Shown here: piece by piece, positions 47,579-61,605 of the stretch | Position numbering within the stretch: the stretch's first letter is position 1 | How the letters are laid out: every line of letters starts with the position of its first letter | NCBI GenBank assembly: GCA_016188545.1 | Contig: JACPHO010000001.1 | Span: forward strand, 483,324 to 547,323 | Source of the DNA: Candidatus Shapirobacteria bacterium | GTDB taxonomy: Bacteria > Patescibacteriota > Microgenomatia > UBA12405 | DNA: 64,000 nt | Direction: 5' to 3' | Notes under the pieces: model-generated | Seen by the model: the letters and a program-made list of their open reading frames with translations, nothing else | What the model was told of the DNA's origin: nothing | Databases searched by the model: none | Position numbers and translations under genes: made by a program

Positions 47579-48910
47579 ATGAGCACAAACCAAAACGATC
47601 TGACCGCCAACATTGTTTCACTTTGTAAACGCCGAGGGATTATCTTTCAAAACTCTGAAATCTATGGAGGAGTCCAGGGTTTCTATGACTATGGTCCCAT
47701 AGGTTCTATCATGAAAAAGAATTGGAAAGACCTTTGGATCCGTTCAAATGTCACCACTCGCCCGGATGTTGTTATGATTGACGGGACTATCATTACCCAC
47801 CCTCGTGTTTGGGAAGCTTCCGGTCATGTCAAAAATTTCGGTGACGAGTTAGTGGAGTGTAAATCATGCCACAAACGATTTCGACCAGACCTAATCGATA
47901 ATGCACCAAAGTGTCCCGAGTGTGGTGGAGAATTTACTACACCTAGAAAATACAATATTCTTTTCCACACTGAAATAGGGGTTATAGAAGGTGAAAAGAT
48001 GGCAGCCTATCTCCGTGGAGAGGCTTGTCAAACTATCTATCTCGATTTTAAAAACGTTGTTAACTCTTGTCGCGTCAAAATTCCTTTTGGCATAGCCCAG
48101 ATCGGAAAAGCCTTCCGCAATGAGATAACTCCCAAAAACTTTCTCTATCGCACCCGCGAATTCGAACAATGGGACATCCAATATTTCACCCACCCTTCTG
48201 AAATGGATAAATGGTACGAGTATTGGAAACAAGACAGAATGGATTGGTATCTCAAACTGTTTAATAAAAAAGATAGTTTGCGTTTCCGTGCTCATGGGGA
48301 TGATGAACTAATCTTTTATGCCAAAAAAGCATTTGACATTGAGTACAACGCTCCATGGGGATGGGCCGAAATGGAGGGAATTCACTGGCGTTCAGATTAT
48401 GATTTGACTCAACACAGCAAATTTAGTGGTCAGGACCTCACCTATCTCGATCCAGTCACTCACGAAAAGTATTTGCCACACATTGTTGAAACATCTGGAG
48501 GAGTCGACCGCTCATTATTCTTCCTACTCCTCGATGCCTATCAGGAAGAAAAACTCGAGAGTGGTGACATCCGTACAGTATTAAAAATCAATCCGCTAGT
48601 TTCCGCCTATAAAGTGGCAATTTTCCCACTAGCATCCAACAAACCAGAACTAGTCAGCAAAGCCCAAGATCTGTGGAAAACACTTTCTAAAAAATACTCT
48701 GTCGATTTCGATGATAGCAGTAATATTGGTAAAAAATATCGCCGACAAGACGAGATTGGAACACCATGGTGTGCAGTGGTCGACTTCCAAACCTTGGAAG
48801 ATAATACCGTCTCTATCCGCAATCGGGATACCATGATCCAATCCAGAATAAAGTTAGACGAAGTTGACAAGTGGTTATCAACCCAACTAAACTCCATATA
48901 TGAGAAATAA
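47579..48910 (+). CDS. glyQS: Glycine--tRNA ligase, homodimeric class II type
   Basis: VSLCKRRGIIFQNSEIYGGVQGFYDYGPIGSIMKKNW and the zinc-knuckle CKSCHKRFRPD...CPECGG are characteristic of GlyQS. Confidence 0.9.
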   Translation: MSTNQNDLTANIVSLCKRRGIIFQNSEIYGGVQGFYDYGPIGSIMKKNWKDLWIRSNVTTRPDVVMIDGTIITHPRVWEASGHVKNFGDELVECKSCHKRFRPDLIDNAPKCPECGGEFTTPRKYNILFHTEIGVIEGEKMAAYLRGEACQTIYLDFKNVVNSCRVKIPFGIAQIGKAFRNEITPKNFLYRTREFEQWDIQYFTHPSEMDKWYEYWKQDRMDWYLKLFNKKDSLRFRAHGDDELIFYAKKAFDIEYNAPWGWAEMEGIHWRSDYDLTQHSKFSGQDLTYLDPVTHEKYLPHIVETSGGVDRSLFFLLLDAYQEEKLESGDIRTVLKINPLVSAYKVAIFPLASNKPELVSKAQDLWKTLSKKYSVDFDDSSNIGKKYRRQDEIGTPWCAVVDFQTLEDNTVSIRNRDTMIQSRIKLDEVDKWLSTQLNSIYEK

Positions 48911-49538
48911 AATTACCTACTATTCCCTTATCTTAGCGTCAGCACTTCTGCTGTCTGCTTGTACTCCAAAAAATAAAGCCCCGGTCGTCGTTCCGACTCC
49001 AACACCTAAGCTAATTGAAATACCTGTAAGTGAAAGACCAATAATCAATCTCACACCAAGGGAAGATGGCCATATGCTTTTCTTAAAGATCTCTGAAATT
49101 CCCAAAAGTGTAGCTTCCATCGAGTACGAGCTGATCTATTCAGCAAAGGACGAATCAGTCGAAATCGAAAAAGGGCTCGGTGACACGATTAAAGATGTTA
49201 GTGGAAGTATTGAGCGTAAATTATTACTAGGTACAGAAAGTTGTACCAATGGTTGTAAGTACAAATATGATGAGGGTGTTGGTGGTGGCACAATTTCGCT
49301 AAAATTTTTTAACAGTAATGGACAGATGTCCACCTACGAATCTTCATTCAACCTAAAATCTACTGCTCAACTGAAGAAAGATCAGGTATTCAAACTAACT
49401 ACTGATAGTTTTGAAGTTCCACTTCCAGCCAAACTTACCGGTAGCAACTACTTCACACTTATCAAACAGTTCCGCGGGGGTTACTCTGTTTTTAGTAGTG
49501 GTACCAGTCCACTCGCAGGTGACTACCCCAAGCCCTAA
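48900..49538 (+). CDS. Lipoprotein of unknown function
   Basis: Signal peptide with lipobox MRNKITYYSLILASALLLSAC-TPK. Confidence 0.5.
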   Translation: MRNKITYYSLILASALLLSACTPKNKAPVVVPTPTPKLIEIPVSERPIINLTPREDGHMLFLKISEIPKSVASIEYELIYSAKDESVEIEKGLGDTIKDVSGSIERKLLLGTESCTNGCKYKYDEGVGGGTISLKFFNSNGQMSTYESSFNLKSTAQLKKDQVFKLTTDSFEVPLPAKLTGSNYFTLIKQFRGGYSVFSSGTSPLAGDYPKP

Positions 49539-50425
49539 TGGAATATCACGTCCCAGTGTTGCTCAACGAAGTTTTAGACCTGCTTTCTGTAAAGCTGGGT
49601 AACATTTATATTGACGGTACTCTAGGTAACGGCGGTCATACTCTAGAAATTCTCAAGAAAGGCGGTGAAGTATATGGAATTGACAGTGACCAAAATAATC
49701 TTGACTTAGCCACGTCAAGGATAGTCGACTCAGGCTATGCGGTTCATTTCCACCCTATCAAGGGTAACTTTACTGACCTTAAACAGATAATTAGTAAAAA
49801 TATCAGTTCCCCAATACACGGAATACTTCTAGATCTGGGATTAAGTTCAAATCAGCAAAAGGCATCTGGTCGCGGTTTCTCTTTTAATGACGAGCAGTCG
49901 CTTGATATGAGACTTGACCCAGCCACACAAGAACTAACAGCAGAGAAAATAATCAATACCTATTCTTTTGAGCAACTTTTCAACATATTTTCTAAGATTG
50001 CTCAAGAGAAATTAAGTAAACCTCTCGCTCAAAAAATCATCACCAAAAGAAAGTCATCTCCCATCAAAGATGGCGCTACCTTAGCCAAAATTATCCGCGA
50101 TGCTTATCTTGCAAAAGGTATCCGAACCAAGATCGATCCTAGTACCAAAATATTTATGGCTCTCAGAATAGTCGTCAATCAAGAATTTGAAAACCTCAAA
50201 CAATTTTTGGATTCAACACTCCACACTCCTTCCTTAAATAATGCCACTGTTTGCATAATCTCTTTTCATTCTGGAGAAGACCGAATTGTTAAGCAGTTCA
50301 TCCGAGAACACCATCCGAGTCTCATTACTTCCCATTCGTCAAAAGCCATTACTGCTACCCACAAAGAAACGGCGGTAAACCCACTCAGTAGGTCAGCCGT
50401 CCTCAGATCATATAGAATAAATTAA
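49538..50425 (+). CDS. rsmH: 16S rRNA (cytosine1402-N4)-methyltransferase RsmH (MraW)
   Basis: MEYHVPVLLNEVLDLL...YIDGTLGNGGHT. First gene of the dcw cluster. Confidence 0.9.
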   Translation: MEYHVPVLLNEVLDLLSVKLGNIYIDGTLGNGGHTLEILKKGGEVYGIDSDQNNLDLATSRIVDSGYAVHFHPIKGNFTDLKQIISKNISSPIHGILLDLGLSSNQQKASGRGFSFNDEQSLDMRLDPATQELTAEKIINTYSFEQLFNIFSKIAQEKLSKPLAQKIITKRKSSPIKDGATLAKIIRDAYLAKGIRTKIDPSTKIFMALRIVVNQEFENLKQFLDSTLHTPSLNNATVCIISFHSGEDRIVKQFIREHHPSLITSHSSKAITATHKETAVNPLSRSAVLRSYRIN

Positions 50426-50682
50426 TGTATAACATTGTTCTTTTAGTTTTTACGATAATCTGTTTTCTCCTCCAAGTCGGCTTTTCTATTTTTTACTCGA
50501 TTAATATCGTTGATATTAGCAATGAGGCCAACCAAGTCCAAAAAAAACTTGAAACTAGCCAAATTGAATTGCAGTTATTAAAAGCCAAATACTTGGAACA
50601 AAGTTCCCTCATGGTTATTCAAAAAGACCCCTCTACTAAGAGTCTTCTACCAATTACCAAAACCGTTACTATTAATCCATGA
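50425..50682 (+). CDS. ftsL: Cell division protein FtsL-like (small bitopic membrane protein)
   Basis: 85 aa with TM helix plus coiled coil. Positioned between rsmH and ftsI. Confidence 0.5.
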   Translation: MYNIVLLVFTIICFLLQVGFSIFYSINIVDISNEANQVQKKLETSQIELQLLKAKYLEQSSLMVIQKDPSTKSLLPITKTVTINP

Positions 50683-52295
50683 TTCCTGATCGCCAAAAAA
50701 CAGTAGTCCTGACTTTAGCCCTCTGCTATCTGGCGGTTGTAGTGAAACTTTTTTACATCCAGATCATAAAATATCCAGAATTATCACGACAGTTATTATC
50801 ACAAAATTTTAAAACGACCACTATCAAGCCAGAAATGGGCAGTATTCTGGACAGTCAAGGTAAGCCGCTCGTTTCTTATCAAACATTTTTCCAAGCCAGT
50901 ATTTACAAACCAGATCTCAAAACAAAAACTGACGCCCTTACTCCACTGCTGGTATCTAAAAACCCACAACTGCCCCAGTCCGACATAGACAAGCTAACTA
51001 AGTTTGTCCAAAACGACAAACAAAAATGGCTGAGTCTCTCTGGATTGTTTGACCTGCGTCAATCCAAAGAGGTTGATGATCCCGGTATAGTCTTTACAAA
51101 AGTAAGTCAACCAATATTTACAGAAAAAAATCTTGGCGACATTTTTTTGGGATCTAGTGGACTCGCCGGCTACTACAAAAGACAACTCTCCGGGAAGGTA
51201 GGATTTTCATGGGAAACCAAAGACGCTGTCGGTAACACTATTCTTACTCATCCAGGCTGGATAATTGACCCCGTTAAAGGTAGCGACATCCCCACTTATG
51301 TCAATCGACAAATTCAATACCTGACAGAAACTACTCTGGCGGAAGGGATCAAACAGTTTTCCGCCGATTCCGGAGAAATACTTATAATAGATCCCAGTAC
51401 TGGCGGTATTATCGCCATGAGTGCTCAAACAGCATCTAGTAGTACAGAAGCGACCTCGAGTGCAGAGGCCACCGCCAGTGCCACCATTTTACATTCAAAC
51501 CCCATCATTGCCAATTTATTTGAACCAGGATCAATTGTCAAACCTTTAATCATGACTCTGGCACTTGATTCGGACTCTATAAAACCTGATTTTATCTGTA
51601 CTAAGTGCGATCGTCCCCACCAAATCGGCCAATATGCCGTTAGTAACTGGGACAGTAATTTTCATGCCAACTCGGATTTAAAGGATATTATCAAGAACTC
51701 TGACAACATCGGAATGAGTTATATCATCAAAGATGTGGGGCTCGAAAAATTTCAAAAATATTTCAAACTGTTAGGACTCGATCGAAAAACCGGTATCGAT
51801 CTACCAGGAGAAGCTAGGCCACTCCTGAAAAGCTATTGGCCTGAAATAGACTTAGCTACGGCTTCTTTTGGACAAGGTTTTGCGGTCACTCAAGTCCAAA
51901 TGCTGACTGCCTTTAACACCATCGCCAATAACGGGGTTCGAGTCGGTCCCCACTTTAGACAGGACCAAAAAACTATTTCCACCAAGGTGTACGAAGCCAA
52001 GTCTGTCGAGCTCATAAAAGACATTCTCCGTTATGGAGTTGAGAACGGGGCAGTCGCAAAGTTTAAACCAGATTCTCTTGAAGTTTGTGGAAAAAGTGGA
52101 ACTTCACAAGTTGCAGTAAAGGGAGGATATTCTGACACATCAACCATCGCTTCCTACATTGGATTTAGCCCCTGTAAAAATCCCGAATTTACAATGATCG
52201 TCACAATCCACAACCCAAGAACATCACCTTGGGGCTCCAGCACTGCAGCTCCAATCTGGTATAAAATAGCGGGAAAACTACCGTCTCTGTTATAA
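50679..52295 (+). CDS. ftsI: Penicillin-binding protein / peptidoglycan D,D-transpeptidase FtsI
   Basis: SxxK (GSIVKPL), SxN (KNSDNIG) and KTG (CGKSGTS) motifs. N-terminal TM. Confidence 0.85.
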   Translation: MIPDRQKTVVLTLALCYLAVVVKLFYIQIIKYPELSRQLLSQNFKTTTIKPEMGSILDSQGKPLVSYQTFFQASIYKPDLKTKTDALTPLLVSKNPQLPQSDIDKLTKFVQNDKQKWLSLSGLFDLRQSKEVDDPGIVFTKVSQPIFTEKNLGDIFLGSSGLAGYYKRQLSGKVGFSWETKDAVGNTILTHPGWIIDPVKGSDIPTYVNRQIQYLTETTLAEGIKQFSADSGEILIIDPSTGGIIAMSAQTASSSTEATSSAEATASATILHSNPIIANLFEPGSIVKPLIMTLALDSDSIKPDFICTKCDRPHQIGQYAVSNWDSNFHANSDLKDIIKNSDNIGMSYIIKDVGLEKFQKYFKLLGLDRKTGIDLPGEARPLLKSYWPEIDLATASFGQGFAVTQVQMLTAFNTIANNGVRVGPHFRQDQKTISTKVYEAKSVELIKDILRYGVENGAVAKFKPDSLEVCGKSGTSQVAVKGGYSDTSTIASYIGFSPCKNPEFTMIVTIHNPRTSPWGSSTAAPIWYKIAGKLPSLL

Positions 52296-52309: not shown

Positions 52310-53587
52310 ATGACCCCTCAAACTGTAAAGATCTATATTCAAAAACTCAAAAATATTTTTTGGCATTTACCTAAAAGTATTTTTTTTAATTTTTACTATG
52401 GTTTTCCTTCCCGGAAACTCACTTTAGTTGCTGTAACCGGAACCGACGGAAAGACCACTACAGTCAACCTCCTTCATGAACTTCTACTCCAGTCCGGTGT
52501 AAAGGTGGGTTCTATATCTACCCTAGGCGCCAAGATTGGCGAAAAAAATACTAGCGTCGGTCTTCACACCACCTCTCCCGATTCCAAAGTTGTCCAAGAG
52601 ATGTTTAAGAAAATGGTGGAGCAGGGCATTACTCATGCAGTTATTGAAGTCACTGCGCACGCCATCGACCAATATCGTTTTTGGGGGTGTCACTTTGAAG
52701 TTGCTCTTATAACCAATACTTCACACGAACACTTAGACGACTTTTTTGATATGGCTCATTACATTAGTACTAAAGCTAAACTGTTTACCCAAGCTACTCA
52801 CAACATCCTCAACAAGGACGACCCATCATACAAAGTAGTTACCGACCTAAATCCTAAAAATCTAACAACTTATAGTACAAAGGAAAAAGCAGACTATAGA
52901 GCTGCAGAAATAAAGCTAACTCCCACCAAATTAAGTTTTTATATCAACAAAACCCTAATCAATACTGATAGTAACTATCTTTACCAGGTATCAAATATCC
53001 TGGCCGCCTTCGCAGCCGCAAATATTTTAAATATATCCGTAGAAATATTTAAAAAAGTAGTCCGTCAATTTCCGTCAATGCAAGGCCGTCGTGAAGAAGT
53101 TAAAAACGATCTTGGTATCCGTTGTATAGTTGACTTTGCCCACACCCCTGCAGCCATCTCATCTACTCTTGAAACTATCCGAGCCACTTCTAAGGGTAAA
53201 AATATAATTATATTCGGAGCTACTGGTGGACGAGACCAAAGTAAGCGGCCGATTATGGGAAAAATTGTCTCCGAACTTGCCGATATTGCCATTATAACCG
53301 CCGACGACACTCGTCATGAAAAGATAGAAGTAATCAACAAGCAAATTATTAGCGGTATCGATCAATCTCGTGTAAAAAGTAAGAAATTCAGTTACCACAA
53401 CATTCCTGGACGTCAGGACGCATTTAACTACGCCCTAAAGATAGCTCAACCAGGTGATACTGTCATTGCCTGTGGCAAGGGACATGAAAACACCATTCTT
53501 CACGGCAATACTGAGTACCCCTGGTCCGAGTCCGAAGCTTTTAGAACTGCCCTACGTCATCGCAATCAAAATAATGGCAACATATAA
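52310..53587 (+). CDS. murE: UDP-N-acetylmuramoyl-L-alanyl-D-glutamate--diamino acid ligase MurE with atypical specificity motif
   Basis: LVAVTGTDGKTTT P-loop. Position after ftsI. The DNPR/DDPx specificity motif region reads ITADDTRHE. Confidence 0.7.
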   Translation: MTPQTVKIYIQKLKNIFWHLPKSIFFNFYYGFPSRKLTLVAVTGTDGKTTTVNLLHELLLQSGVKVGSISTLGAKIGEKNTSVGLHTTSPDSKVVQEMFKKMVEQGITHAVIEVTAHAIDQYRFWGCHFEVALITNTSHEHLDDFFDMAHYISTKAKLFTQATHNILNKDDPSYKVVTDLNPKNLTTYSTKEKADYRAAEIKLTPTKLSFYINKTLINTDSNYLYQVSNILAAFAAANILNISVEIFKKVVRQFPSMQGRREEVKNDLGIRCIVDFAHTPAAISSTLETIRATSKGKNIIIFGATGGRDQSKRPIMGKIVSELADIAIITADDTRHEKIEVINKQIISGIDQSRVKSKKFSYHNIPGRQDAFNYALKIAQPGDTVIACGKGHENTILHGNTEYPWSESEAFRTALRHRNQNNGNI

Positions 53588-54167
53588 CCTCGACCAACTT
53601 CCAACCATCGACCAATCTTATGAGCAAGGGATGCTTCCCCAAAGAAATGATAAAACAAAATTCTATAAAGACACCAGTGGGCGCTGCAATCTAGCCAACT
53701 ATTCACTAAGTTCAGAAAACCGGCGTATTCTTCGCAAAACCGATCAATATACCTGCCGCTCTCTTCCGCTTTGCGAGTTTGAATATACCCCTTTAATACA
53801 AAAACAAATTTATAATTGGATAAAATTACTCGGCTGGGATTTTCCCATAAGCTCAGTCAAGACTATTTTTAACTCTCATATCTTTAATCATCTGGACATT
53901 TGGCAAGATGGCGAAAAAGTTATCGCCTACTCTATTTGCTACACTTCACCTCACATCTCTCACATTGCCTATGTCTTCTACGACCCACAATACTCCCACG
54001 GGGACTTACCAATCAGACTAGTCCTCCAATTCGTCATCAATAGTTACGAACAACATCGTAAGTACTGCTATTTAGGAAGATTTTCAGGCGAGGTCGGTTA
54101 CTATAAAAGGAACATGCCCGGATTCGAACACTTTCAAGACGGTGTTTGGGTAAAGTTTAAAAAATAA
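53574..54167 (+). CDS. Arginyl/leucyl-tRNA--protein transferase-like (ATE/Bpt C-terminal domain) protein
   Basis: HISHIAYVFYDPQYSHGDLPIRLVLQFVINSYEQHRKYCYLGRF matches the ATE_C consensus (...YxFYDP...LG...L..I.....YLYLGY). Start set at MATYNL, overlapping the murE end. Confidence 0.45.
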   Translation: MATYNLDQLPTIDQSYEQGMLPQRNDKTKFYKDTSGRCNLANYSLSSENRRILRKTDQYTCRSLPLCEFEYTPLIQKQIYNWIKLLGWDFPISSVKTIFNSHIFNHLDIWQDGEKVIAYSICYTSPHISHIAYVFYDPQYSHGDLPIRLVLQFVINSYEQHRKYCYLGRFSGEVGYYKRNMPGFEHFQDGVWVKFKK

Positions 54168-54168
54168 T

Positions 54169-55476
54169 ATGAGAATTCACATACTGGCTATTGTCGGAAA
54201 AATGACAACACCGTTGGCTGTCGAACTTCAGAGATTGGGTCACACTGTCACCGGTTCTGATCAAGATAAAATATATCCACCAGCTAGTACCACTCTAGAA
54301 AAAAACTCCATATCAGTAAACACCAGGACTATCGATAAAAATATAGATCTTGTTATAGTCGGTTCTTCTTATACTCACTTTACAAGATGCGTCCAAGAGT
54401 TAGCGCAAGCCAAAAAACTTGGTATTCCTTTTATTCCAGCAACTGAATATTTAGCGAATATGCTAGTCAAACAAAATTCAATTGTCGTGGCCGGGTCTTT
54501 CGGCAAGACGACCATAACAGCACTCCTAGCTTTTCTTTTTGACAAACTAGGACTCGATCCAAGCTATTGTTTTGGCGAAAAAATAATCAACAACCTTCCC
54601 TCAGTTCACTCCTCAAATTCAGACTGGTCAATTATTGAAGGCGACGAGTCTATCAACGGTCTCGACACAAAAGCAAAATTCTTTTCATACGGTCCAAAAT
54701 ATCTCATTCTCACTTCAGTTGGTTGGGAGCACAAAGATTCTTATCCGACCCAGGAAGCCAACCAGCAGGCATTTTCAGACCTACTAAGTTTAGTCCCTCC
54801 TGATGGGATAGTTGTCTACAACCCAGAGGATAGTGGCATAAATCAGATTTTTTCTTCCACAAAAGCTACTACGGTTCCGTACGAAAATTTTAGTTTCGAT
54901 ACTTCACTTATTGGTATGCACAATAATCAAAACATTCGTGCCGCCCTTACCCTTATTAAGGCATTAAAACTTGACCTCCAAAGGGCAATCGAATTAATAC
55001 CCACCTTTTTGGGAGTAGAACGACGACTCCAAATTATTTCCAAAACTTCAAACATAACAATAATAGATGACTACGCTCAGTCTGCCATCAGAGTTAACAC
55101 AGCCATAAATTCCATTCGCGAAACTTTTCCATCAGCTGCTATAAAAGTTTTTTTTGAACCTCACGCCTCATTTCTCCAAAGTGTTTCCGGTTTGAATGGT
55201 TTCAAAGATGCTTTTTCTACATGTTCAGAAGTTATACTTTCCCAAATTAATTATCGCAAATCCATAAAAGGTGACCGAGTTACTGCACGTAGTTTTACTG
55301 ATGAGATAGGGGATTCACTCAAATACATTCCCATCTACGAGGACATATTCCAGCATTTTAAGAATTCACTAAAACCAGGTGATATTTTAATTCATTTTAG
55401 TTCAGGAGGTCTTGATGGACTCAATACGCTAAAGCGTCTAGTCTCCCACTTCAACCCTGAAATACCATATACTTAA
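54169..55476 (+). CDS. Mur ligase, Mpl/MurC-like (UDP-N-acetylmuramate--L-Ala or --tripeptide ligase)
   Basis: MRIHILAIVGKMTTPLAVELQRLGHTVTGSDQDKIYPPASTTLEK is close to the E. coli Mpl N-terminus (MRIHILGICGTFMGG...GHEVTGSD...YPPMSTLLEK). P-loop VVAGSFGKTTIT. Confidence 0.7.
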   Translation: MRIHILAIVGKMTTPLAVELQRLGHTVTGSDQDKIYPPASTTLEKNSISVNTRTIDKNIDLVIVGSSYTHFTRCVQELAQAKKLGIPFIPATEYLANMLVKQNSIVVAGSFGKTTITALLAFLFDKLGLDPSYCFGEKIINNLPSVHSSNSDWSIIEGDESINGLDTKAKFFSYGPKYLILTSVGWEHKDSYPTQEANQQAFSDLLSLVPPDGIVVYNPEDSGINQIFSSTKATTVPYENFSFDTSLIGMHNNQNIRAALTLIKALKLDLQRAIELIPTFLGVERRLQIISKTSNITIIDDYAQSAIRVNTAINSIRETFPSAAIKVFFEPHASFLQSVSGLNGFKDAFSTCSEVILSQINYRKSIKGDRVTARSFTDEIGDSLKYIPIYEDIFQHFKNSLKPGDILIHFSSGGLDGLNTLKRLVSHFNPEIPYT

Positions 55477-55484
55477 GTGTCTTT

Positions 55485-56519
55485 ATGATTCATCTTTACC
55501 TAGGACTTCTCTTATTCTCTTTCCTCACCAACAGCATTTTGGTGATTCCTTTCATCAACCTTCTATATAAACTAAAATTTCAACGACAAGAACAAACCAC
55601 TCTTGATTTTCAAAACAAGCACACCACAGTCTTTGACAAATACCACAGCCAGAAGTCAGGCACTCCCGTTGGAGGAGGACTGTTAATTATTTTTACAGTA
55701 TCTGTCCTATTCGCGTTCCTATTCCCAATTCTCAAGTTTTCCAACATTTATATTTCCAGTAACTACAAAATAGACAACGAAATTCTGATCATTTTTTTTA
55801 CTTTTGTCAGTTTCGCTGTTCTAGGTTTATACGATGATGTTCTAAAATTTTTTAACTTCGAAAAAACGGGATTCTTTGGGCTAAAAATGTTACACAAGTT
55901 GATACTCCAAATACTTCTTGCCTTCTCGATTTCTGTCTACCTTTATCTTAACTTGGGCATAAGTTTTGTATATATCCCCTTTGTTGGAGCAGTTGCTCTG
56001 GGTTGGTTTTCTGTACCGCTCTATACAATAATTATTGCCGGATTCGCCAACTTTTTCAATATTAGTGATGGACTCGACGGTCTTTCCTGCGGTCTACTAA
56101 TGATTGCCCTTTTTGCCTTCTGGTTTCTTTCCAATGCCTCCCTTGATACACCCATCTCTTTATTTTTAGCTCTATGGCTTGGCGCGCTTATCGCTTTTTT
56201 ATATTTCAATATTTATCCAGCCCGCATCTGGTTAGGAGATGTTGGCTCACTTTCATTTGGTGCCACATTTGCCCTCATCGCAATTATTCTGGGTAAACTC
56301 GTCCCTCTAATGATTGTCGGCGCCCCTTTTATTATTGAAGGCTTAAGCAGTGCCGTTCAGATAATTAGTAAAAGCTACTTTCATAAAAAGATTTTTCCAG
56401 CAGCGCCCATCCACCTAACACTTCAGAAAAACGGCTGGGAAGAGCCAAAAATTGTTTTTAGAGCTTGGCTTGCCGGTATAATATTAGCTATTTTTGGTCT
56501 ATGGCTGGGGATAAATTAG
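55485..56519 (+). CDS. mraY: Phospho-N-acetylmuramoyl-pentapeptide transferase MraY
   Basis: NFFNISDGLDGLSCG (NxxNxxDGxDGL), DDVLKF, about 10 TM helices. Confidence 0.9.
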   Translation: MIHLYLGLLLFSFLTNSILVIPFINLLYKLKFQRQEQTTLDFQNKHTTVFDKYHSQKSGTPVGGGLLIIFTVSVLFAFLFPILKFSNIYISSNYKIDNEILIIFFTFVSFAVLGLYDDVLKFFNFEKTGFFGLKMLHKLILQILLAFSISVYLYLNLGISFVYIPFVGAVALGWFSVPLYTIIIAGFANFFNISDGLDGLSCGLLMIALFAFWFLSNASLDTPISLFLALWLGALIAFLYFNIYPARIWLGDVGSLSFGATFALIAIILGKLVPLMIVGAPFIIEGLSSAVQIISKSYFHKKIFPAAPIHLTLQKNGWEEPKIVFRAWLAGIILAIFGLWLGIN

Positions 56520-57043
56520 CGCTTCTAAAACTGGAAATCCAAAAATATCTTGGTATTCCTTATTTCACCAATAAGGGTAAATTTAAAACAACTGGTTCTA
56601 ATGTTTTTGTTGGTAAAGGCACAGCCAAAGAAATTGCTCTGGAAACAATCAATTTAGCCAATCAACAAAATATTAAACTATTGGAACTATCCGCCGACCG
56701 CATCTATAATTTTCAGAAAAAAAACCACCTTGGCATCGATTGTTCTGGTTTAGCGTGCCATTTGCTCAATTTTTATTTCGATACCAAATTAGACCCACGC
56801 CGCACATCTGCACAGATGCTGACCTCATCGCCACTTTCACAAGAAATTGAAGACCCCACAACCGGCGACCTAGTCCAACAAAAGAACGGTAAGCATCTAT
56901 TGTTTATCGTCGAAAAAGACGGCAATATAATCAACTATATCGATAGTAGTTTCGAAGGCAGAGGAGTTCGTTACGGGAGTTTCAATATCAACAACCCAGT
57001 TTTCAAACACGACGGTTTTTTCCGTCTACTTCTCCTCAATTAG
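56501..57043 (+). CDS. NlpC/P60 family peptidoglycan endopeptidase
   Basis: LGIPYFTNKGKF and GIDCSGLACHLLNFYF match the catalytic Cys motif GxDCSGL. Downstream His in GKHLLF. Start uncertain: the first in-frame Met after mraY is used. Confidence 0.55.
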   Translation: MAGDKLALLKLEIQKYLGIPYFTNKGKFKTTGSNVFVGKGTAKEIALETINLANQQNIKLLELSADRIYNFQKKNHLGIDCSGLACHLLNFYFDTKLDPRRTSAQMLTSSPLSQEIEDPTTGDLVQQKNGKHLLFIVEKDGNIINYIDSSFEGRGVRYGSFNINNPVFKHDGFFRLLLLN

Positions 57044-57193
57044 TTCGCGATAAGTCAAGGGTTCTAAAGATTGTATTTCTACTTCAGTTCCACACTCACT
57101 ACATTCCAAAATATCACCAACTACCATTCCCTCAATTTGAGGTATTTCACTATTACAATCCGGACAAGTAATTTTTAAGTTCGCATCAGCCAT
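57029..57193 (-). CDS. LysW-like zinc-ribbon amino-group carrier protein (55 aa)
   Basis: Reverse-strand translation: MADANLKITCPDCNSEIPQIEGMVVGDILECSECGTEVEIQSLEPLTYRELIEEK. Matches the LysW core CPxC...GE(L/I)(V/L)xCxxCGxE(L/V)E(V/I)xxL(D/E)PL. Below the 60-aa threshold of the ORF track. Confidence 0.55.
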
Positions 57194-57226
57194 AATTATT
57201 GGTTAAAATATAACTAAACCTATTAT

Positions 57227-58027
57227 ATGACACCACTCAATTGTTTTGACGATATCTATTTTAAACGTGAAGACGAGTCAGTTACTGGCTCCGCCAAAGA
57301 TAGAGCCATTCCTTATCAGATCGACAACTTAATCGCCCAAGGGTTCTCATCTGCAGTAATTTCTTCCACTGGAAATGCTGCTATTGCTGCACAATATTAT
57401 TGCAATCTAAAAAAGATTCCCTTAACCGTGTTTGTTTCTCCTCACACACCCCAGTCCAAACTCTCCCTTATTAATAATTACCAAACAACACTTAAACCAG
57501 TTTCCGATGCCATTAAGTACTCCAAGGCTAATAAAAGCTACTTACTACGCCAGTCAACTGACGAGTCGGCACTAATAGGGTATAGCTATCTTGGTAGTGA
57601 AATTATTGAACAAGTACCCGATGTTACCAGTATCTTTTTCCCCGTGGGAAGTGGGGCCACTTTAGTTGGAGTATCTTCTGCAATACCTAAAAATGTCAAA
57701 ATATTTGCCATCCAATCTGCTTACAACTGTCCCATTACTAAAGAACTTGACCCTGGCTTTATCCAAGAACCTATTAATATAACCGACGCCCTAACCGCCA
57801 AATATGTCCCACTCAAACCACGTGTACATAATGTTCTGAAAGCCACTGGTGGAACGGGACAAGTTGTATCAAATCAAGAAATCATGGATGCTCAAAATAA
57901 GCTAGAAAGTTTTGGGGTGCGCTGTTCTTATGAAGGGGGACTAACCTTAGCTGGGCTATTCAAAGCAAAATCCTTATTTGATATCGGACCAAAACCACTA
58001 GTTATTATCACTGGCACCAAAAGATGA
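57227..58027 (+). CDS. PLP-dependent fold-type II enzyme, cysteine synthase (CysK/CysM)/threonine synthase-like
   Basis: YFKREDESVTGSAKDRAI matches the PLP-lysine motif of CysM (NPAGSVKDRAA). Gly-rich loop FFPVGSGATLVG. At 266 aa it is shorter than typical members. Confidence 0.6.
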   Translation: MTPLNCFDDIYFKREDESVTGSAKDRAIPYQIDNLIAQGFSSAVISSTGNAAIAAQYYCNLKKIPLTVFVSPHTPQSKLSLINNYQTTLKPVSDAIKYSKANKSYLLRQSTDESALIGYSYLGSEIIEQVPDVTSIFFPVGSGATLVGVSSAIPKNVKIFAIQSAYNCPITKELDPGFIQEPINITDALTAKYVPLKPRVHNVLKATGGTGQVVSNQEIMDAQNKLESFGVRCSYEGGLTLAGLFKAKSLFDIGPKPLVIITGTKR

Positions 58028-59151
58028 CCAAGATTGAAAATTATTTAAATACCCTCCCTTACCACTTTTATTTTTTGGTGGTCGATAACTTTCTAGATAT
58101 CAATCTACCAAATCTAACTAACTTCGTCTCGATATCGCCAAAAACACTTGGCATCCAGCTTGAACAAAAAAATTCTGGCAGATTGCTTTCCCATCCCGAG
58201 TGCATCAGTTTCATAAAAACTCACACCCCCAAAGGACTTACCCCAGCAATTATTCCATTTAAACCATCACCAAAGATTGATCTGGTCTGTCAACAGAACG
58301 GTTGGGTTAACATCAGCAATCCCAGCAAATTAAATCGTTTTTTCGAAGACAAGATCCTGTTTTCAAAACTATTAGACGAACACTTCCTCCCCCAAATACC
58401 TCACACTATCACCACTTTTACAAAAGACAATTTCGCGGTCGCACAGGAGCAGTATGGCTCCTTGTTAGTAGTCCAGACCCATTTTGGTTGGGCGGGCAAT
58501 AGCTCCCACCTCTCCGATGACTTTAGTAGCTTATCGACCAAAATTGCTATTGATACTCCTATAAAAATATCTCCATTCCTCACCGGCACTTCTCTAATAA
58601 ATAACTGCTGTCTTACTCCACAAGGTCTTGTCCAAAGCCCTCCAGGACTTCAGTACACCGGTATCTCTGCTTTATCTAAAAATCCACTTGCTACCACCGG
58701 CCGACAATGGCCTTCGCACTCGGGCTCTAATATTAATGACCAGATTAAAAAAATAACCATCAATTTTAGTGAAGTTCTAAAATCCAAAGGCTACTTAGGT
58801 TTTTTTGGGTTAGATTTTTTTGTTAATGAAGACAAAGTTTTTTTGTTGGAATGTAACCCAAGGCTAACTGCTTCTTTTTCCTTCTATACTGCAATAGAAA
58901 AAAATAGTAACTATGAACCCCTATTTTTTTATCACCTGCTTTCATTTTTACCCAGCACTTATCCCATAAACCAAATTGAACAAAACCGACGGTTCACAGA
59001 CTCTACTATTGTTGGTTCTGAAATAACCCTCAAGAGTGAAGAGGGGAATACCATCAAAAAATACAACGCCTTTATAGACTTTGCACCTGAAGGTGACCCT
59101 ACAAAAATTGATCAAATAGTTTTGAGTGAGGTACTAAATGAAGTCATCTAA
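58024..59151 (+). CDS. ATP-grasp superfamily ligase of unknown specificity
   Basis: GFFGLDFFVNEDKVFLLECNPRLTASF is the ATP-grasp C-terminal catalytic motif (ExNxR). The central SLLVVQTHFGWAGNSSHL is a probable ATP-binding loop. No Ddl N-terminal motif. Confidence 0.6.
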   Translation: MTKIENYLNTLPYHFYFLVVDNFLDINLPNLTNFVSISPKTLGIQLEQKNSGRLLSHPECISFIKTHTPKGLTPAIIPFKPSPKIDLVCQQNGWVNISNPSKLNRFFEDKILFSKLLDEHFLPQIPHTITTFTKDNFAVAQEQYGSLLVVQTHFGWAGNSSHLSDDFSSLSTKIAIDTPIKISPFLTGTSLINNCCLTPQGLVQSPPGLQYTGISALSKNPLATTGRQWPSHSGSNINDQIKKITINFSEVLKSKGYLGFFGLDFFVNEDKVFLLECNPRLTASFSFYTAIEKNSNYEPLFFYHLLSFLPSTYPINQIEQNRRFTDSTIVGSEITLKSEEGNTIKKYNAFIDFAPEGDPTKIDQIVLSEVLNEVI

Positions 59152-60262
59152 GTTCATTTTTTTAGTATCCATATTATTAACAATTGGGCTGGTTTTTATT
59201 TCAATCTCTTCCATAACTGAAGCCAGTAATACTGTTGGAGACAAATTCTTTTTTATAAAAAAACAGCTCCTTTGGTCACTCGTTGGGGTTGCCTCTTTTA
59301 GCCTTGCCTCCACCATTCCCTTGTCCCTCATCAAAAAATTTGCCACGCCTTTATATATAATCTCCACTGCCTTGCTTGCAATTATCTTAATACCCAGTCT
59401 GAGTAACAGCGCTTTAGGTGCGAGGCGGTGGTTGGATCTGGGAATAGTTGGCATACAACCATCTGAAATATTTAAGCTTGCTGCTATTATTTTCTTCGCC
59501 AACGTTTTTTCTCAAGAAAAATACCGCCATCTAAAATATCTAGTTTTATTTTTAACCGTTCCACTTTCATTAGTTGTTCTCGAGCCAAATATGAGCACTG
59601 CTATTCTTATAGCTGCCATTACCATTACTATTTTCTATTTAGCCAATGGCAACCTCACTAGCATTATTGCGATTTGTTCTGTAGCCATGATGATCAGCAC
59701 TCTGCTAATCGTTATTTCTCCATACCGCAAAGCCCGTTTTGACCAAACTTCGTATCATTCAAATCAGATGACTCTCACTCTCACTTCAGGTCAGTTGGCC
59801 GGTAAGGGCTTTGCAAACTCAGATCAAAAATATCGTTATCTACCCAAAATATCTACTGATTCAATTCTTGCTGTTATCGGCGAAGAAACCGGCTTCATAG
59901 GAGTTAGTTTGATAGTAGGTTTGTATTACATCTTAGTTAGTGACATTTTTACTCTCAGTACTTTTCAGGTCAAATATAGTTTTAAGTACCTACTGATACT
60001 GGGCATTGGCTGTTGGATTGCCTACCAAAGTCTTATCAATATGGCCACAGTAGTTTCTCTCATTCCACTCACCGGAGTCACCTTACCACTTATTTCATAT
60101 GGAGGATCATCCCTGATAACTATTCTTTTTGGGCTTGGTCTCATCAACAACTTGATATACTCAACTAGATATGAAGATCAGCAAGACCATCATCATAACC
60201 GGAACTCATCACACACCAGCTATCGAGCTCATAAACCATCTCAAAAAAGATCCGGAAGTTAA
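59138..60262 (+). CDS. ftsW: SEDS family peptidoglycan glycosyltransferase FtsW
   Basis: About 10 TM helices. KQLLWSLVG...GARRWLDLG...ISTDSILAVIGEETGFIG. Confidence 0.85.
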   Translation: MKSSKFIFLVSILLTIGLVFISISSITEASNTVGDKFFFIKKQLLWSLVGVASFSLASTIPLSLIKKFATPLYIISTALLAIILIPSLSNSALGARRWLDLGIVGIQPSEIFKLAAIIFFANVFSQEKYRHLKYLVLFLTVPLSLVVLEPNMSTAILIAAITITIFYLANGNLTSIIAICSVAMMISTLLIVISPYRKARFDQTSYHSNQMTLTLTSGQLAGKGFANSDQKYRYLPKISTDSILAVIGEETGFIGVSLIVGLYYILVSDIFTLSTFQVKYSFKYLLILGIGCWIAYQSLINMATVVSLIPLTGVTLPLISYGGSSLITILFGLGLINNLIYSTRYEDQQDHHHNRNSSHTSYRAHKPSQKRSGS

Positions 60263-61244
60263 CTGGAAAATAGTCTATGTCGCTCATCAGTATAAGACCG
60301 AAACACACCTTCTTCACACCATAATTCCCAAACTAAAAGTGGAATTCTTTAATCTTGACTGTGGTAAGTTTGATCGCAAAAATCTGGACATAACCTTGAT
60401 GGGTATTCCTAAGATCATTAAAGCGTTTTTTACATCCCTCTCTCTTCTAAAAAATCTCCAGCCTCAAATAGTCGTTTCTTTTGGTGGTTATGTTTCTGTC
60501 CCAGTTGTTATTGCTACATATTTCAATAAGATTCCCTCGATTACTCACGAACAGACAGTTACCAATAGTCTAGCAACCAAAATCAACAGTTACTTTGCCA
60601 CAAAAGTAGCCCTTTCATTTGATAATGTCACTCAAAAAAAACAATTACCTGTCAAAAAAACTGTCGTCACCGGTAATCTTTTAAGACAGGAAATCTTTAA
60701 CACTACATCAACAAATTATAAGAATACCACCCATCCAATAATTTATTTTACTGGCGGCAACCAAGGATCAATTTTTCTAAACGAGTTAATATATCAACTC
60801 GTCCCACTGTTAGGTAACAAATATACAGTCATTCACCAAACTGGGAAAAATAATAATCAAGTACTTCAAGACGAGTTGACCAAAAAATACAAATACATTT
60901 CATCTGAGTTTATCGAGAGTGAAGATATTGGCTGGGTTCTAAGCAACGCCGACGTTATTGTCAGTCGATCTGGTGCCAATATTTGCCAAGAAATAGATAC
61001 CCTCGACAAAAAAGCACTATTGATTCCCCATCCCTTCACCCAACAAAACGAGCAGCAGCTAAATGCACTCTGGTTACAAAACCATCACCCTAAGTCGATT
61101 AAGATAGTTTCACAACCAAACGCCAGTCCATCAACGATACTCGAAACCATCAACGAACTTGTAACCACTATTCACACCTCACACCCCAAAAAGTTACCCC
61201 TTATTCACCCATTATATAAACTAGTTCATGAAATATCTCTCTAA
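60171..61244 (+). CDS. murG: Undecaprenyldiphospho-muramoylpentapeptide beta-N-acetylglucosaminyltransferase MurG
   Basis: IIITGTHHTPAIEL (the GGTGGH-like G-loop), FGGYVSVPVVIA, C-terminal HQTGK. The 92-nt overlap with ftsW is unresolved. Confidence 0.8.
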   Translation: MKISKTIIITGTHHTPAIELINHLKKDPEVNWKIVYVAHQYKTETHLLHTIIPKLKVEFFNLDCGKFDRKNLDITLMGIPKIIKAFFTSLSLLKNLQPQIVVSFGGYVSVPVVIATYFNKIPSITHEQTVTNSLATKINSYFATKVALSFDNVTQKKQLPVKKTVVTGNLLRQEIFNTTSTNYKNTTHPIIYFTGGNQGSIFLNELIYQLVPLLGNKYTVIHQTGKNNNQVLQDELTKKYKYISSEFIESEDIGWVLSNADVIVSRSGANICQEIDTLDKKALLIPHPFTQQNEQQLNALWLQNHHPKSIKIVSQPNASPSTILETINELVTTIHTSHPKKLPLIHPLYKLVHEISL

Positions 61245-61605
61245 ATATTTCTTCACCATTCCCATTATATTTCTAACATTTCAGCTAATTTATCTACTCG
61301 GGATTACCCTAAAACCTCAGATAACGCCCTATTCAGACAACAACCGTTATCTGACAGATCTCACCAACACTCTTCGGCTAAGCAAGTTGCAATACCAACA
61401 ACTAAATTTTTTTGATCACCGTAACGAAGTCGAAATGATTATCATCGACCAGCCCAACCACAGCTTTAAAACCATAATTTCAACCCAACTCCCCCCCCTT
61501 TCCCAAGTTGCTGCCTTACAAAAACTCATAAAAATCGCTAATATTGAGGGTAAGGAGTTATCATTCGTTGATCTAAGCTCCCGCCGTCCATATGCAACAT
61601 TCTAA
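61228..61605 (+). CDS. FtsQ/DivIB-like small membrane protein (reduced)
   Basis: 125 aa with N-terminal TM. Position between murG and ftsA. Confidence 0.35.
   Translation: MKYLSKYFFTIPIIFLTFQLIYLLGITLKPQITPYSDNNRYLTDLTNTLRLSKLQYQQLNFFDHRNEVEMIIIDQPNHSFKTIISTQLPPLSQVAALQKLIKIANIEGKELSFVDLSSRRPYATF

What the first reader, a model, noticed from the sequence alone, without database searches (positions are those of the whole stretch)
53574..54167. Aminoacyl-tRNA--protein transferase (ATE/Bpt)-like gene between murE and the next Mur ligase
The ORF carries the ATE_C-like core (YVFYDP...YCYLGRF) and overlaps the end of murE. ATE/Bpt, L/F-transferase and FemXAB share a GNAT-like fold and all use aminoacyl-tRNA as donor. 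FemX-type enzymes add amino acids to UDP-MurNAc-pentapeptide or lipid II. Its position inside the precursor-synthesis operon suggests tRNA-dependent aminoacylation of a peptidoglycan precursor by an ATE-family rather than a Fem-family enzyme. This would be novel.
Basis: partly seen in the sequence, partly recalled or inferred. Interest (0 to 1): 0.7.

Follow-up and report, generated by a model that had tools for sequence, protein, structure and literature searches.

The report
tRNA-dependent transferase in cell-wall operon
A small, strongly conserved gene of the arginyl/leucyl-tRNA-protein transferase family sits inside the cell-wall precursor operon of many ultra-small (CPR/Patescibacteria) bacteria, always next to, and in one group fused to, the first peptide ligase of that pathway, so these bacteria probably build part of their cell-wall peptide from a charged tRNA in a way not yet described.

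Summary
Window 53574-54167 (+) encodes a 197-aa protein. It overlaps murE by 14 nt and ends 1 nt before the next ligase.

More than 550 homologues exist, in at least 511 species genomes, and every labelled one is Patescibacteria. In 86 of 90 loci a MurC/Mpl-type ligase follows directly, even where the dcw cluster is rearranged. In one clade the two proteins are fused through a Pro/Ser linker.

A role in peptidoglycan-precursor synthesis is well supported (about 0.8). The exact step is not. The tie to the MurC/Mpl ligase and decayed MurD-like proteins in one lineage slightly favour formation of the residue-1-D-Glu bond (about 0.35).

No paper found describes this. I rate it a new variant of a known kind, and it can be tested in vitro.

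The parts
53574..54167 (+). ATE/Bpt-like aminoacyl-tRNA transferase, 197 aa. It is a minimal form with no Cys4 site. Catalytic Tyr177-Lys178. SSENRR motif at aa 46-51.
52310..53587 (+). MurE, 425 aa, lacking the N-terminal UDP-binding domain 1. Its stop overlaps the ATE-like start by 14 nt. Carries a DDTR motif where E. coli MurE has DNPR.
   Evidence: Residue 28 aligns to about residue 94-138 of every solved MurE.
54169..55476 (+). MurC/Mpl-type UDP-MurNAc ligase, 435 aa, the invariant downstream partner. It has an Mpl-type insertion after E-x-DE. The MurC L-Ala-binding Arg377 and Arg380 are not conserved.
   Evidence: PMC3060825
55485..56519 (+). MraY
56465..57043 (+). NlpC/P60-like protein with a DCSG cysteine motif. 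I saw no obvious N-terminal signal peptide by eye. The true start is uncertain.
   Evidence: PF00877, E 8.7e-4, below cut-off; conserved in synteny
57026..57193 (-). LysW-like zinc-ribbon protein, 55 aa, with a conserved C-terminus ...EEK
   Evidence: Pfam Zn_ribbon_LysW in relatives
57227..58027 (+). PLP-dependent (PALP) enzyme, 266 aa. Best solved relatives are serine racemases.
58024..59151 (+). ATP-grasp ligase, 375 aa, at the place where murD sits in canonical dcw clusters
47579..48910 (+). Glycine-tRNA ligase, conserved two genes upstream of rsmH. It is a possible donor supplier, but the adjacency may be coincidental.
   Evidence: NF003211, 552.6 bits, cut-off 312, where I had mislabelled it ProS
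49538..52295 (+). rsmH, ftsL and ftsI, the upstream dcw genes on the same strand
59138..62839 (+). ftsW, murG, an ftsQ-like gene and ftsA, the downstream dcw genes

Best explanation
What it is (shown): a real gene for a stripped-down member of the ATE/Bpt superfamily of aminoacyl-tRNA transferases. It is one GNAT-type core plus a cysteine-free remnant of ATE_N.

How it works (inferred from the family):
- It binds the 3' end of a charged tRNA.
- Lys178 and Tyr177 stabilise the tetrahedral intermediate.
- A substrate amine that sits near a carboxylate attacks the aminoacyl ester, making a peptide bond without ATP.
- The donor is a small or hydrophobic amino acid or glycine, not arginine.

Where it works (strongly supported by context, about 0.8): cytoplasmic peptidoglycan-precursor synthesis, as the partner of the MurC/Mpl-type ligase that is always encoded next to it and is fused to it in one clade.

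Which bond it makes (my favoured reading, about 0.35-0.4, wholly inferred): it joins residue 1 (L-Ala or Gly from tRNA) to the alpha-amine of D-Glu. D-Glu would be free, part of a small peptide, or tethered to a carrier. The Mpl-like ligase then loads the preformed peptide onto UDP-MurNAc. MurD chemistry would then be dispensable, and MurE and MurF would continue as usual.
For: Fold and motifs:
- Y177-K178 is invariant and aligns to the YK of human ATE1. That YK is the Tyr303-Lys304 essential in klAte1 (PMC9351520).
- SSENRRILRKT aligns to SKSHKKVLKKM of ATE1. I take this to be the basic tRNA-binding helix described in PMC9351520. That equivalence is my inference.

Donor is not Arg: the residues aligned to the klAte1 Arg pocket, Ser255, Ser273 and Glu277, are I131, L149 and F153 (F, V, T or I across the family).

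Pathway link:
- 86 of 90 loci have the MurC/Mpl-type ligase directly downstream. 75 have MurE directly upstream.
- The pair persists in rearranged contexts: MraY-ATE-ligase-PALP in L082-L086 and L089-L092, and as an isolated pair beside peptidoglycan peptidase genes in L075.
- Fusion protein P0122: 7 cluster members of 630-654 aa from ENA, JGI and NCBI, on contigs up to 234 kb, joined by a Pro/Ser linker.

For the early step:
- The ligase's best solved relative is Psychrobacter Mpl 3hn7 (122 bits against 87 for the best MurC).
- It carries the Mpl-only insertion and lacks the MurC Arg377 and Arg380 that bind the L-Ala carboxylate.
- ATE/Bpt acceptors are alpha-amines of acidic N-terminal residues (PMC9351520).
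- No MurD lies within +-9 kb in any Microgenomates-type locus, nor in the 64-kb window.
- L076-type clusters hold MurE, the ligase, MurB, MurA, Ddl, MurF and MraY, with no MurD in the 18.5 kb held. The sister locus L078, which extends further, adds ATP-grasp after PALP.
- In the second lineage the adjacent MurD-like protein has lost the Mg-binding Glu, the conserved His and the carbamylated Lys in nearly all of 120 sampled members.
Against: - No biochemical data exist. Donor, acceptor and stereochemistry are all inferred.
- I could not search whole genomes, so an intact MurD may lie elsewhere in Microgenomates-type genomes, as MurF and Ddl must.
- One member of the second lineage (P0331, L091) keeps an apparently intact MurD together with the ATE-like gene.
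- NCBIfam scores the ligase slightly higher as MurC than as Mpl in 4 of 5 cases, all below cut-off.
- Mur fusions are known between enzymes of non-consecutive steps (PMC10214165). The fusion therefore proves a shared pathway, not adjacent steps.
- In most loci the gene also follows murE, which fits a Fem-like role.
- The ATP-grasp gene in the murD slot could be what replaces MurD.
- The equivalence of klAte1 Arg80 (acceptor site) with R24 or R37 could not be fixed without a residue-level structural alignment.
Confidence: 0.38

Rival explanations
1. Fem-like branch or bridge addition. The enzyme transfers Gly or an L-amino acid from tRNA to the free amine of the position-3 diamino acid of UDP-MurNAc-tri/pentapeptide or lipid II. 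It would do the job of FemX or MurM with an ATE-family scaffold.
For: - The gene follows murE directly in 75 of 90 loci and overlaps its stop.
- MurE keeps the Arg of the DNPR-type motif (DDTR). A DAP-type residue would offer an amine next to a carboxylate, as ATE-type pockets prefer.
- In Southlakia epibionticum there is no ATE-like gene next to murC and no PF04377 hit. Two FemA/FemB-family genes flank murE there, one scored essential in all three Tn-seq calls and the other in two of three.
- Glycine-tRNA ligase is conserved just upstream of the cluster.
- tRNA-dependent cross-bridge synthesis by GNAT-fold enzymes is established chemistry (PMC2922099).
Against: - When the cluster is rearranged the gene stays with the MurC/Mpl-type ligase, not with MurE or MurF (L075, L077, L082-L092). 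It is fused to that ligase.
- This reading does not explain the Mpl-like traits of the ligase or the decay of MurD-like proteins.
- recO-glyS adjacency also occurs in Firmicutes (my own knowledge), so it may be coincidence.
Confidence: 0.25
2. It has another peptidoglycan-linked role with a different acceptor. Examples: aminoacylation of the C-terminal lysine of the LysW-like carrier, of another protein of the Mur complex, or of a salvaged host muropeptide fragment such as gamma-D-Glu-DAP before religation by the Mpl-like enzyme.
For: - The set ATE-like, MurC/Mpl-like, LysW-like, PALP and ATP-grasp recurs in two very distant lineages with different gene order.
- The LysW-like protein always ends in ...EEK or ...DEGK.
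- CPR bacteria are host-dependent scavengers, and Mpl is a recycling ligase (PMC3060825).
Against: - Nothing singles out any one of these acceptors.
- The LysW-like gene is not adjacent to the ATE-like gene in the Microgenomates arrangement.
Confidence: 0.2
3. It is an ordinary Bpt-type N-degron enzyme. It would add Leu or a similar residue to N-terminal Asp/Glu of proteins for ClpS/ClpAP degradation, and it merely happens to lie in the dcw cluster.
For: - The closest named families are bacterial arginyl/leucyl-transferases (NCBIfam PRK01305 models).
- The donor pocket is hydrophobic, as described for Bpt.
- JGI annotates several homologues this way.
Against: - All scores are far below family cut-offs (33 bits against 170).
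- The Cys4 motif is absent.
- Pairing with the ligase holds in 86 of 90 loci and there is a fusion with it.
- No ClpS protein appears in the annotation table of the one cultured CPR genome I could check. That genome has no ATE-like gene next to murC either.
Confidence: 0.05

Closest known systems
Bpt (bacterial Leu-tRNA-protein transferase, e.g. Vibrio vulnificus) and eukaryotic ATE1
   Same: - The FYDP strand, the YLG motif and the catalytic Tyr-Lys are shared.
- The basic S-x-S-x-R/K-R/K helix motif is shared.
- NCBIfam arginyltransferase models align across aa 35-196.
- The donor pocket is hydrophobic, as described for Bpt.
   Different: - Only 197 aa.
- No Cys4 metal site and no ATE_N hit.
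- Scores fall below every curated cut-off.
- No acidic residue at the Arg-selecting position.
- Embedded in and fused to peptidoglycan-synthesis genes rather than linked to proteolysis.
- Every homologue that carries an organism name is Patescibacteria.
FemX / FemABX / MurM transferases
   Same: - They use aa-tRNA to make a peptide bond on a peptidoglycan precursor.
- They share the GNAT-type catalytic domain with an equivalent catalytic Lys (FemX Lys305, per PMC9351520).
- In a related CPR lineage, Fem genes flank murE.
   Different: - No PF02388 hit.
- One GNAT core instead of two, and no coiled-coil.
- The partner gene is the MurC/Mpl-type ligase.
Mpl (murein peptide ligase), compared with the partner ligase
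   Same: - The partner ligase shares the Mpl-only insertion after E-x-DE.
- It shares the Mpl-like GSD..YPP.S..L N-terminal motif.
- Its best solved relative is Mpl 3hn7.
- Mpl attaches preformed peptides to UDP-MurNAc.
   Different: - It is below the NCBIfam mpl cut-off (154-265 bits against 388.7).
- It scores as high or higher against murC.
- It appears to be the only MurC-type enzyme of a biosynthetic cluster, not a recycling accessory.
MprF / aminoacyl-phosphatidylglycerol synthase catalytic domain
   Different: - MprF transfers to a lipid hydroxyl.
- It has two GNAT domains and a membrane flippase domain.
- No Pfam hit here.
LysW/LysX amino-group carrier system, compared with the neighbouring genes
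   Same: A small zinc-ribbon protein with a LysW-type Pfam/NCBIfam hit lies next to an ATP-grasp ligase.
   Different: - The C-terminus is ...EEK or ...DEGK (terminal Lys). LysW ends in EDWGE with a terminal Glu (my own knowledge).
- It is accompanied only by a PLP enzyme and an NlpC/P60-like protein.
- It lies inside a dcw cluster.

Membership tests
ATE/Bpt aminoacyl-tRNA-protein transferases (Pfam ATE_C PF04377 + ATE_N PF04376; NCBIfam PRK01305) | ATE_C profile match at the curated threshold | tested here: inconclusive
   The window protein scores 22.9 bits against a gathering score of 25. Many close homologues carry a precomputed PF04377 hit. Wider relatives score 24-41 bits. NCBIfam gives 33 bits against a cut-off of 170.
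ATE/Bpt aminoacyl-tRNA-protein transferases | ATE-type fold: a GNAT core packed against the N-terminal element | tested here: met
   [not shown]
ATE/Bpt aminoacyl-tRNA-protein transferases | Catalytic Tyr-Lys (klAte1 Tyr303-Lys304, FemX Lys305) | tested here: met
   Y177-K178 is invariant in 32 close sequences. K178 is invariant and Y177 at least 90% conserved in 87 wide sequences. It aligns to the YK of human and yeast ATE1. Functional data are in PMC9351520.
ATE/Bpt aminoacyl-tRNA-protein transferases | Basic helix that binds the tRNA acceptor end | tested here: met
   SSENRRILRKT (S47, E48, N49, R51, K55, T56 invariant) aligns to SKSHKKVLKKM of human ATE1. The HMMER segment is weak. Helix at aa 47-55 in the model. 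Matching this segment to the klAte1 alpha-3 helix is my inference.
ATE/Bpt aminoacyl-tRNA-protein transferases | Cys4 metal site of ATE_N (klAte1 Cys23, Cys26, Cys95, Cys96) | tested here: not met
   No cysteine is conserved in the N-terminal 60 residues. The vicinal Cys pair aligns to F30-Y31. No PF04376 hit.
Arginyltransferase (R-transferase) subtype | Acidic residue that selects arginine (klAte1 Glu277) | tested here: not met
   The aligned position is F153, and F, V, T or I across the family. The neighbouring pocket residues are I131 and L149.
ATE/Bpt aminoacyl-tRNA-protein transferases | Acts on N-terminal Asp/Glu of proteins and feeds an N-degron pathway | not testable with these tools
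   This needs an assay and whole-genome data on ClpS/ClpA. The context argues for a different substrate.
FemABX family (PF02388) | FemAB profile match and a two-GNAT-domain architecture | tested here: not met
   [not shown]
FemABX family (function) | Transfers an amino acid from tRNA to a peptidoglycan precursor | not testable with these tools
   Only gene context is available.
L/F-transferase Aat (PF03588) | Profile match and fold | tested here: not met
   [not shown]
MurC (TIGR01082), for the partner ligase | Equivalog score, and the L-Ala-binding His376, Arg377 and Arg380 | tested here: not met
   204 bits against a cut-off of 335.1. The sequence EPHASFLQ keeps the His but lacks both Arg residues (residues from PMC3060825).
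Mpl (TIGR01081), for the partner ligase | Equivalog score, and the Mpl-specific (S/T)AFFDKRSK-type insertion | tested here: inconclusive
   154 bits against a cut-off of 388.7. An insertion of the same length and position is present: DESING-LDTKAKFFSY in the window and DEYKSARWDNGAKFFHY in L083. The best PDB hit is Mpl 3hn7.

The most novel reading that the evidence does not exclude
A carrier-protein and tRNA route to the first two residues of the stem peptide, replacing MurD. The six extra genes shared by these dcw clusters would form one pathway:
1. The ATP-grasp enzyme tethers L-Glu through its gamma-carboxyl to the epsilon-amine of the conserved C-terminal lysine of the LysW-like protein.
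2. The serine-racemase-like PLP enzyme inverts it to D-Glu.
3. The ATE-like enzyme adds L-Ala or Gly from tRNA to the free alpha-amine. This substrate would mimic the N-terminal Glu on a protein that is the classic ATE/Bpt substrate.
4. The NlpC/P60-like enzyme cuts the gamma-D-Glu-Lys bond. Cutting such bonds is what I understand its family to be known for (my own knowledge).
5. The Mpl-like ligase loads the released dipeptide onto UDP-MurNAc.

MurD catalysis then becomes unnecessary. That would explain why MurD-like proteins in one large CPR lineage have lost their Mg-binding residues.
Probability: 0.12. Interest if true: 0.92.

Novelty: new variant of a known kind. Interest (0 to 1): 0.72.

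Why it matters
Peptidoglycan stem-peptide synthesis by MurC-F is usually treated as near-universal, with tRNA used only for Fem-type side branches.

Here an enzyme family known only from protein N-end-rule tagging is hard-wired into the cell-wall operon of a very large uncultured radiation, and in one clade fused to the first Mur ligase. There are two possible outcomes, and both would be new:
- A second, independent recruitment of an aa-tRNA transferase family to peptidoglycan synthesis.
- A tRNA-dependent bypass of a core Mur ligase step.

It also gives a concrete, clonable pair of small soluble proteins with which to ask what the CPR cell wall is made of and where these organisms get D-Glu.

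Tried and rejected
- **Spurious overlapping frame.** Rejected: there are 552 homologues with 51 invariant columns in the sample, and a confident fold.
- **Truncated MurE as a sign that the peptide is assembled off the nucleotide.** The window MurE lacks its UDP-binding domain. I dropped this as evidence because MurE and MurF of Southlakia also start directly with the central domain, and that genome has no ATE-like gene next to murC. It looks like a general CPR trait.
- **Upstream aaRS.** I first labelled it ProS. NCBIfam shows it is glycine-tRNA ligase. I do not count its adjacency as evidence, because recO-glyS linkage is common elsewhere (my own knowledge).
- **ATE-like occurs only where MurD is degenerate.** Rejected: L091 has an apparently intact MurD plus the ATE-like gene.
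- **Narrow family profile against PDB sequences.** It found nothing relevant. The wide profile found ATE1 only at E about 0.02-0.09. Structure comparison was needed.
- **afdb50 fold library.** Unavailable.
- **tRNA genes.** None in the window.
- **Promoter and terminator scans.** At background level, so uninformative.
- **Literature.** Seven full-text searches found no description of this gene or pairing. The dcw-cluster survey of Megrian et al. 2022 is not held.
- **MurD, MurI, Fem and ClpS across whole genomes.** A profile search with MurD-like proteins returned only the second lineage.
Full report
**1. The observation.**

Window 53574-54167 (+) is an ORF of 197 codons. It starts at an ATG that overlaps the last 14 nt of murE (stop at 53585-53587). 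It ends in TAA one base before the ATG of the next gene at 54169. The tight spacing on both sides indicates co-translation with its neighbours. Promoter and terminator consensus scans of the region are at background level and say nothing either way.

**2. Is it a gene?**

Yes. A search of 5.8 billion proteins returned 552 hits at E<=1e-3. The best 120 are all 183-221 aa and 55-96% identical. Thirty-two sampled sequences share 51 invariant columns.

Named records are Shapirobacteria, Woesebacteria, Microgenomates, Dojkabacteria, 'Parcubacteria' and 'Patescibacteria group'. Many ENA bins are titled 'uncultured Gammaproteobacteria', but they carry the same CPR gene order and so look mislabelled.

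**3. What family?**

Sequence evidence is weak but consistent.
- Pfam ATE_C gives 22.9 bits, just under the gathering score of 25.
- NCBIfam arginyltransferase models reach E 3.4e-8 across aa 35-196 but score far below their cut-offs.
- There are no ATE_N, FemAB or L/F-transferase hits.

Structure is decisive.
- An AF2 model built on the family alignment has pLDDT 94.7 and pTM 0.91.
- Foldseek ranks ATE1 structures first (E 5e-9).

A profile search of 1.84 billion representatives shows a wider family of about 210-270-aa relatives. These align over their whole length, starting near their residue 27.

**4. Functional residues.**

I compared the protein with the klAte1 mutagenesis data (PMC9351520).
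- The essential Tyr303-Lys304 corresponds to Y177-K178. This pair is invariant in the close family, and K178 is invariant across 87 distant members.
- SSENRRILRKT aligns with SKSHKKVLKKM of human ATE1. I take this to be the basic tRNA-binding helix.
- The four zinc-binding cysteines are gone. The vicinal pair aligns with F30-Y31.
- The arginine-selecting pocket (Ser255, Ser273, Glu277) is I131, L149 and F/V/T/I153. The enzyme is therefore not an arginyltransferase. Its donor is probably a small or hydrophobic residue or glycine, as argued for Bpt in that paper.
- An invariant Arg (R24) and Tyr (Y31) lie in the segment that holds the acceptor-site Arg80 and Tyr87 of klAte1. I could not fix the equivalence without a residue-level structural alignment.

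In short, it works like an ATE/Bpt enzyme. It fails two family-defining features, the Cys4 site and the curated score thresholds, so I file it as a divergent branch of the superfamily.

**5. Context.**

Three distant near-complete genomes show the same order: RecO, aaRS, lipoprotein, RsmH, FtsL, FtsI, MurE, ATE-like, ligase, (MurA), MraY, P60-like, LysW-like (minus strand), PALP, ATP-grasp, FtsW, MurG, FtsQ-like, FtsA.

Across the 90 loci I hold (a few are duplicates of the same contig region):
- The ligase lies directly downstream of the ATE-like gene in 86.
- Two loci end too early to tell.
- Two are exceptions, one of them interrupted by inserted genes.
- MurE lies directly upstream in 75.

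The pairing survives rearrangement.
- In a second, very distant lineage (29-36% identity) the order is ATP-grasp, x, MraY, ATE-like, ligase, LysW-like, PALP, MurD-like.
- In L075 the pair stands alone beside a beta-lactamase-fold protein, an M15 peptidase and DUF218.
- In one clade the two proteins are fused: ATE-like, then a linker LPSPSVPSPSVPSPSTPSISLTPP, then the ligase. Seven cluster members of 630-654 aa come from three data sources, on contigs up to 234 kb.

Natural Mur fusions include non-consecutive enzymes (PMC10214165). The fusion therefore proves a shared pathway or complex, not the order of steps.

**6. The partner ligase.**

It belongs to the MurC/Mpl branch but to neither equivalog. 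The window protein scores murC 204 against a cut-off of 335 and mpl 154 against 389. Relatives score 242-288 against murC and 186-265 against mpl. Its best solved relative is 3hn7, the Psychrobacter Mpl of PMC3060825.

It shares several Mpl traits.
- It has the insertion after E-x-DE that the Mpl paper calls Mpl-specific.
- It has the Mpl-like N-terminal GSD..YPP.S..L motif.
- Of the MurC residues that hold L-Ala (His376, Arg377, Arg380) it keeps only the His.

In L076-type clusters it sits with MurE, MurB, MurA, Ddl, MurF and MraY, so it appears to be the cluster's UDP-MurNAc ligase.

**7. MurD.**

No MurD homologue lies within +-9 kb of the gene in any Microgenomates-type locus, nor anywhere in the 64-kb window. 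The slot between mraY and ftsW, where murD normally sits (E. coli reference), is filled by P60-like, LysW-like, PALP and ATP-grasp.

In the second lineage a MurD-like gene is adjacent, and it belongs to a large family of 3862 hits. In nearly all of the 120 sampled members:
- The Mg-binding Glu is Arg.
- About 25-33 residues carrying the conserved His and the carbamylated Lys are deleted.
- The P-loop is kept.

One member (P0331) keeps all three elements and still has the ATE-like neighbour. MurD catalysis therefore seems to have become dispensable after the ATE-like gene was already present. What replaced it is not shown. I could not check whether Microgenomates-type genomes carry an intact MurD elsewhere.

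**8. Comparison with a cultured CPR bacterium.**

The annotation and Tn-seq tables of Southlakia epibionticum (PMC10633639 supplement) show the following.
- There is no ATE-like gene beside murC and no PF04377 hit anywhere in the table.
- MurE and MurF also lack the N-terminal domain. That removes the truncated MurE as an argument specific to this system.
- Two FemA/FemB-family genes flank murE. One is scored essential in all three Tn-seq calls and the other in two of three.
- No ClpS protein and no glutamate racemase is annotated.

**9. Weighing the mechanisms.**

That the protein is an aa-tRNA transferase working in peptidoglycan-precursor synthesis I put at about 0.8. For the specific bond there are two serious candidates.

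(a) Fem-like addition to the residue-3 amine. This is known chemistry. It fits the position after murE and the Saccharibacteria analogy.

(b) Formation of the bond between residue 1 and D-Glu, with the Mpl-like ligase loading the product. This fits several observations:
- the invariant pairing and fusion with that ligase rather than with MurE or MurF;
- the ligase's Mpl-like traits and lost L-Ala-binding arginines;
- the ATE-family preference for the alpha-amine of an acidic residue;
- the absent or decayed MurD.

I slightly favour (b) at about 0.35-0.4, against about 0.25 for (a). About 0.2 goes to other peptidoglycan-linked acceptors and about 0.05 to an ordinary N-degron role. All steps beyond fold, motifs and gene context are inference.

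**10. Novelty.**

Full-text searches found no paper describing an ATE/Bpt-like gene in CPR dcw clusters or its pairing with a Mur ligase. JGI annotates some homologues automatically as arginyltransferase, and NCBI calls them hypothetical. I rate it a new variant of a known kind. If reading (b) or the carrier-protein version of it is right, it would be a new route for a core step of cell-wall synthesis.

Noticed in passing
window 56465-59151 (P60-like 56465-57043 +; LysW-like 57026-57193 -; PALP 57227-58027 +; ATP-grasp 58024-59151 +); also L089-L092: Four extra genes sit exactly where murD lies in canonical dcw clusters. The same set recurs in a very distant CPR lineage with a different gene order. 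The LysW-like zinc-ribbon protein was found in 65 loci and always ends in ...EEK or ...DEGK, a terminal Lys rather than the terminal Glu of LysW. The best solved relatives of the PALP enzyme are serine racemases (E 6e-9). It looks like a carrier-protein module of unknown product inside the cell-wall operon.
   Followed up: partly
L085:12211-13578 (-), L082:8285-9670 (-), L086:12187-13485 (-); proteins P0277-P0396: There is a large CPR family of MurD-like proteins (3862 hits). Most keep the P-loop. They have Arg in place of the Mg-binding Glu and have deleted the segment holding the conserved His and the carbamylated Lys. One member (P0331, 510 aa) is intact. They look like pseudo-ligases that are nevertheless well conserved.
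   Followed up: partly
window 52310-53587 (+): MurE lacks the whole N-terminal UDP-binding domain. Its residue 28 aligns to about residue 94-138 of every solved MurE. Pfam and ECOD domain ranges in the Southlakia annotation table show that MurE and MurF there also start directly with the central domain, so this seems general in CPR.
   Followed up: partly
window 47579-48910 (+): Glycine-tRNA ligase (552 bits, cut-off 312) is conserved two genes upstream of rsmH in about 70 loci, after recO. It could supply Gly-tRNA to the transferase, or it could be an inherited recO-glyS pair.
   Followed up: partly
protein P0168 (809 aa): A distant member of the same ATE-like family is fused to PPDK_N and PEP-utilizer domains. 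This suggests other, non-cell-wall uses of the scaffold.
   Followed up: no
window 1-46852: About 45 kb upstream of the dcw cluster is one long glycan-synthesis island.
- About 17 glycosyltransferase genes (GT2, GT4 and one PMT-type).
- An ABC-2 exporter pair.
- An MBOAT + AlgX-like pair (14323-16916).
- Radical SAM/SPASM (11041-11937, -).
- Two hexapeptide acyltransferases.
- A stand-alone LPG_synthase_TM protein (27948-28883, -).
- A Fic/RhuM protein (4090-5064, -).
- DUF4012 (44852-46852).

   Followed up: no
window 48900-49538 (+): A conserved predicted lipoprotein (LLLSAC lipobox, no family hit) sits between the glycine-tRNA ligase and rsmH, where mraZ would be in E. coli. No mraZ was seen.
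   Followed up: no
loci L008-L086 (record titles): Many ENA MAG contigs titled 'uncultured Gammaproteobacteria bacterium' or 'uncultured Candidatus Saccharibacteria' carry the Microgenomates-type gene order, so the titles look like placeholder taxonomy. The cultured Saccharibacterium Southlakia has no ATE-like gene next to murC.
   Followed up: no
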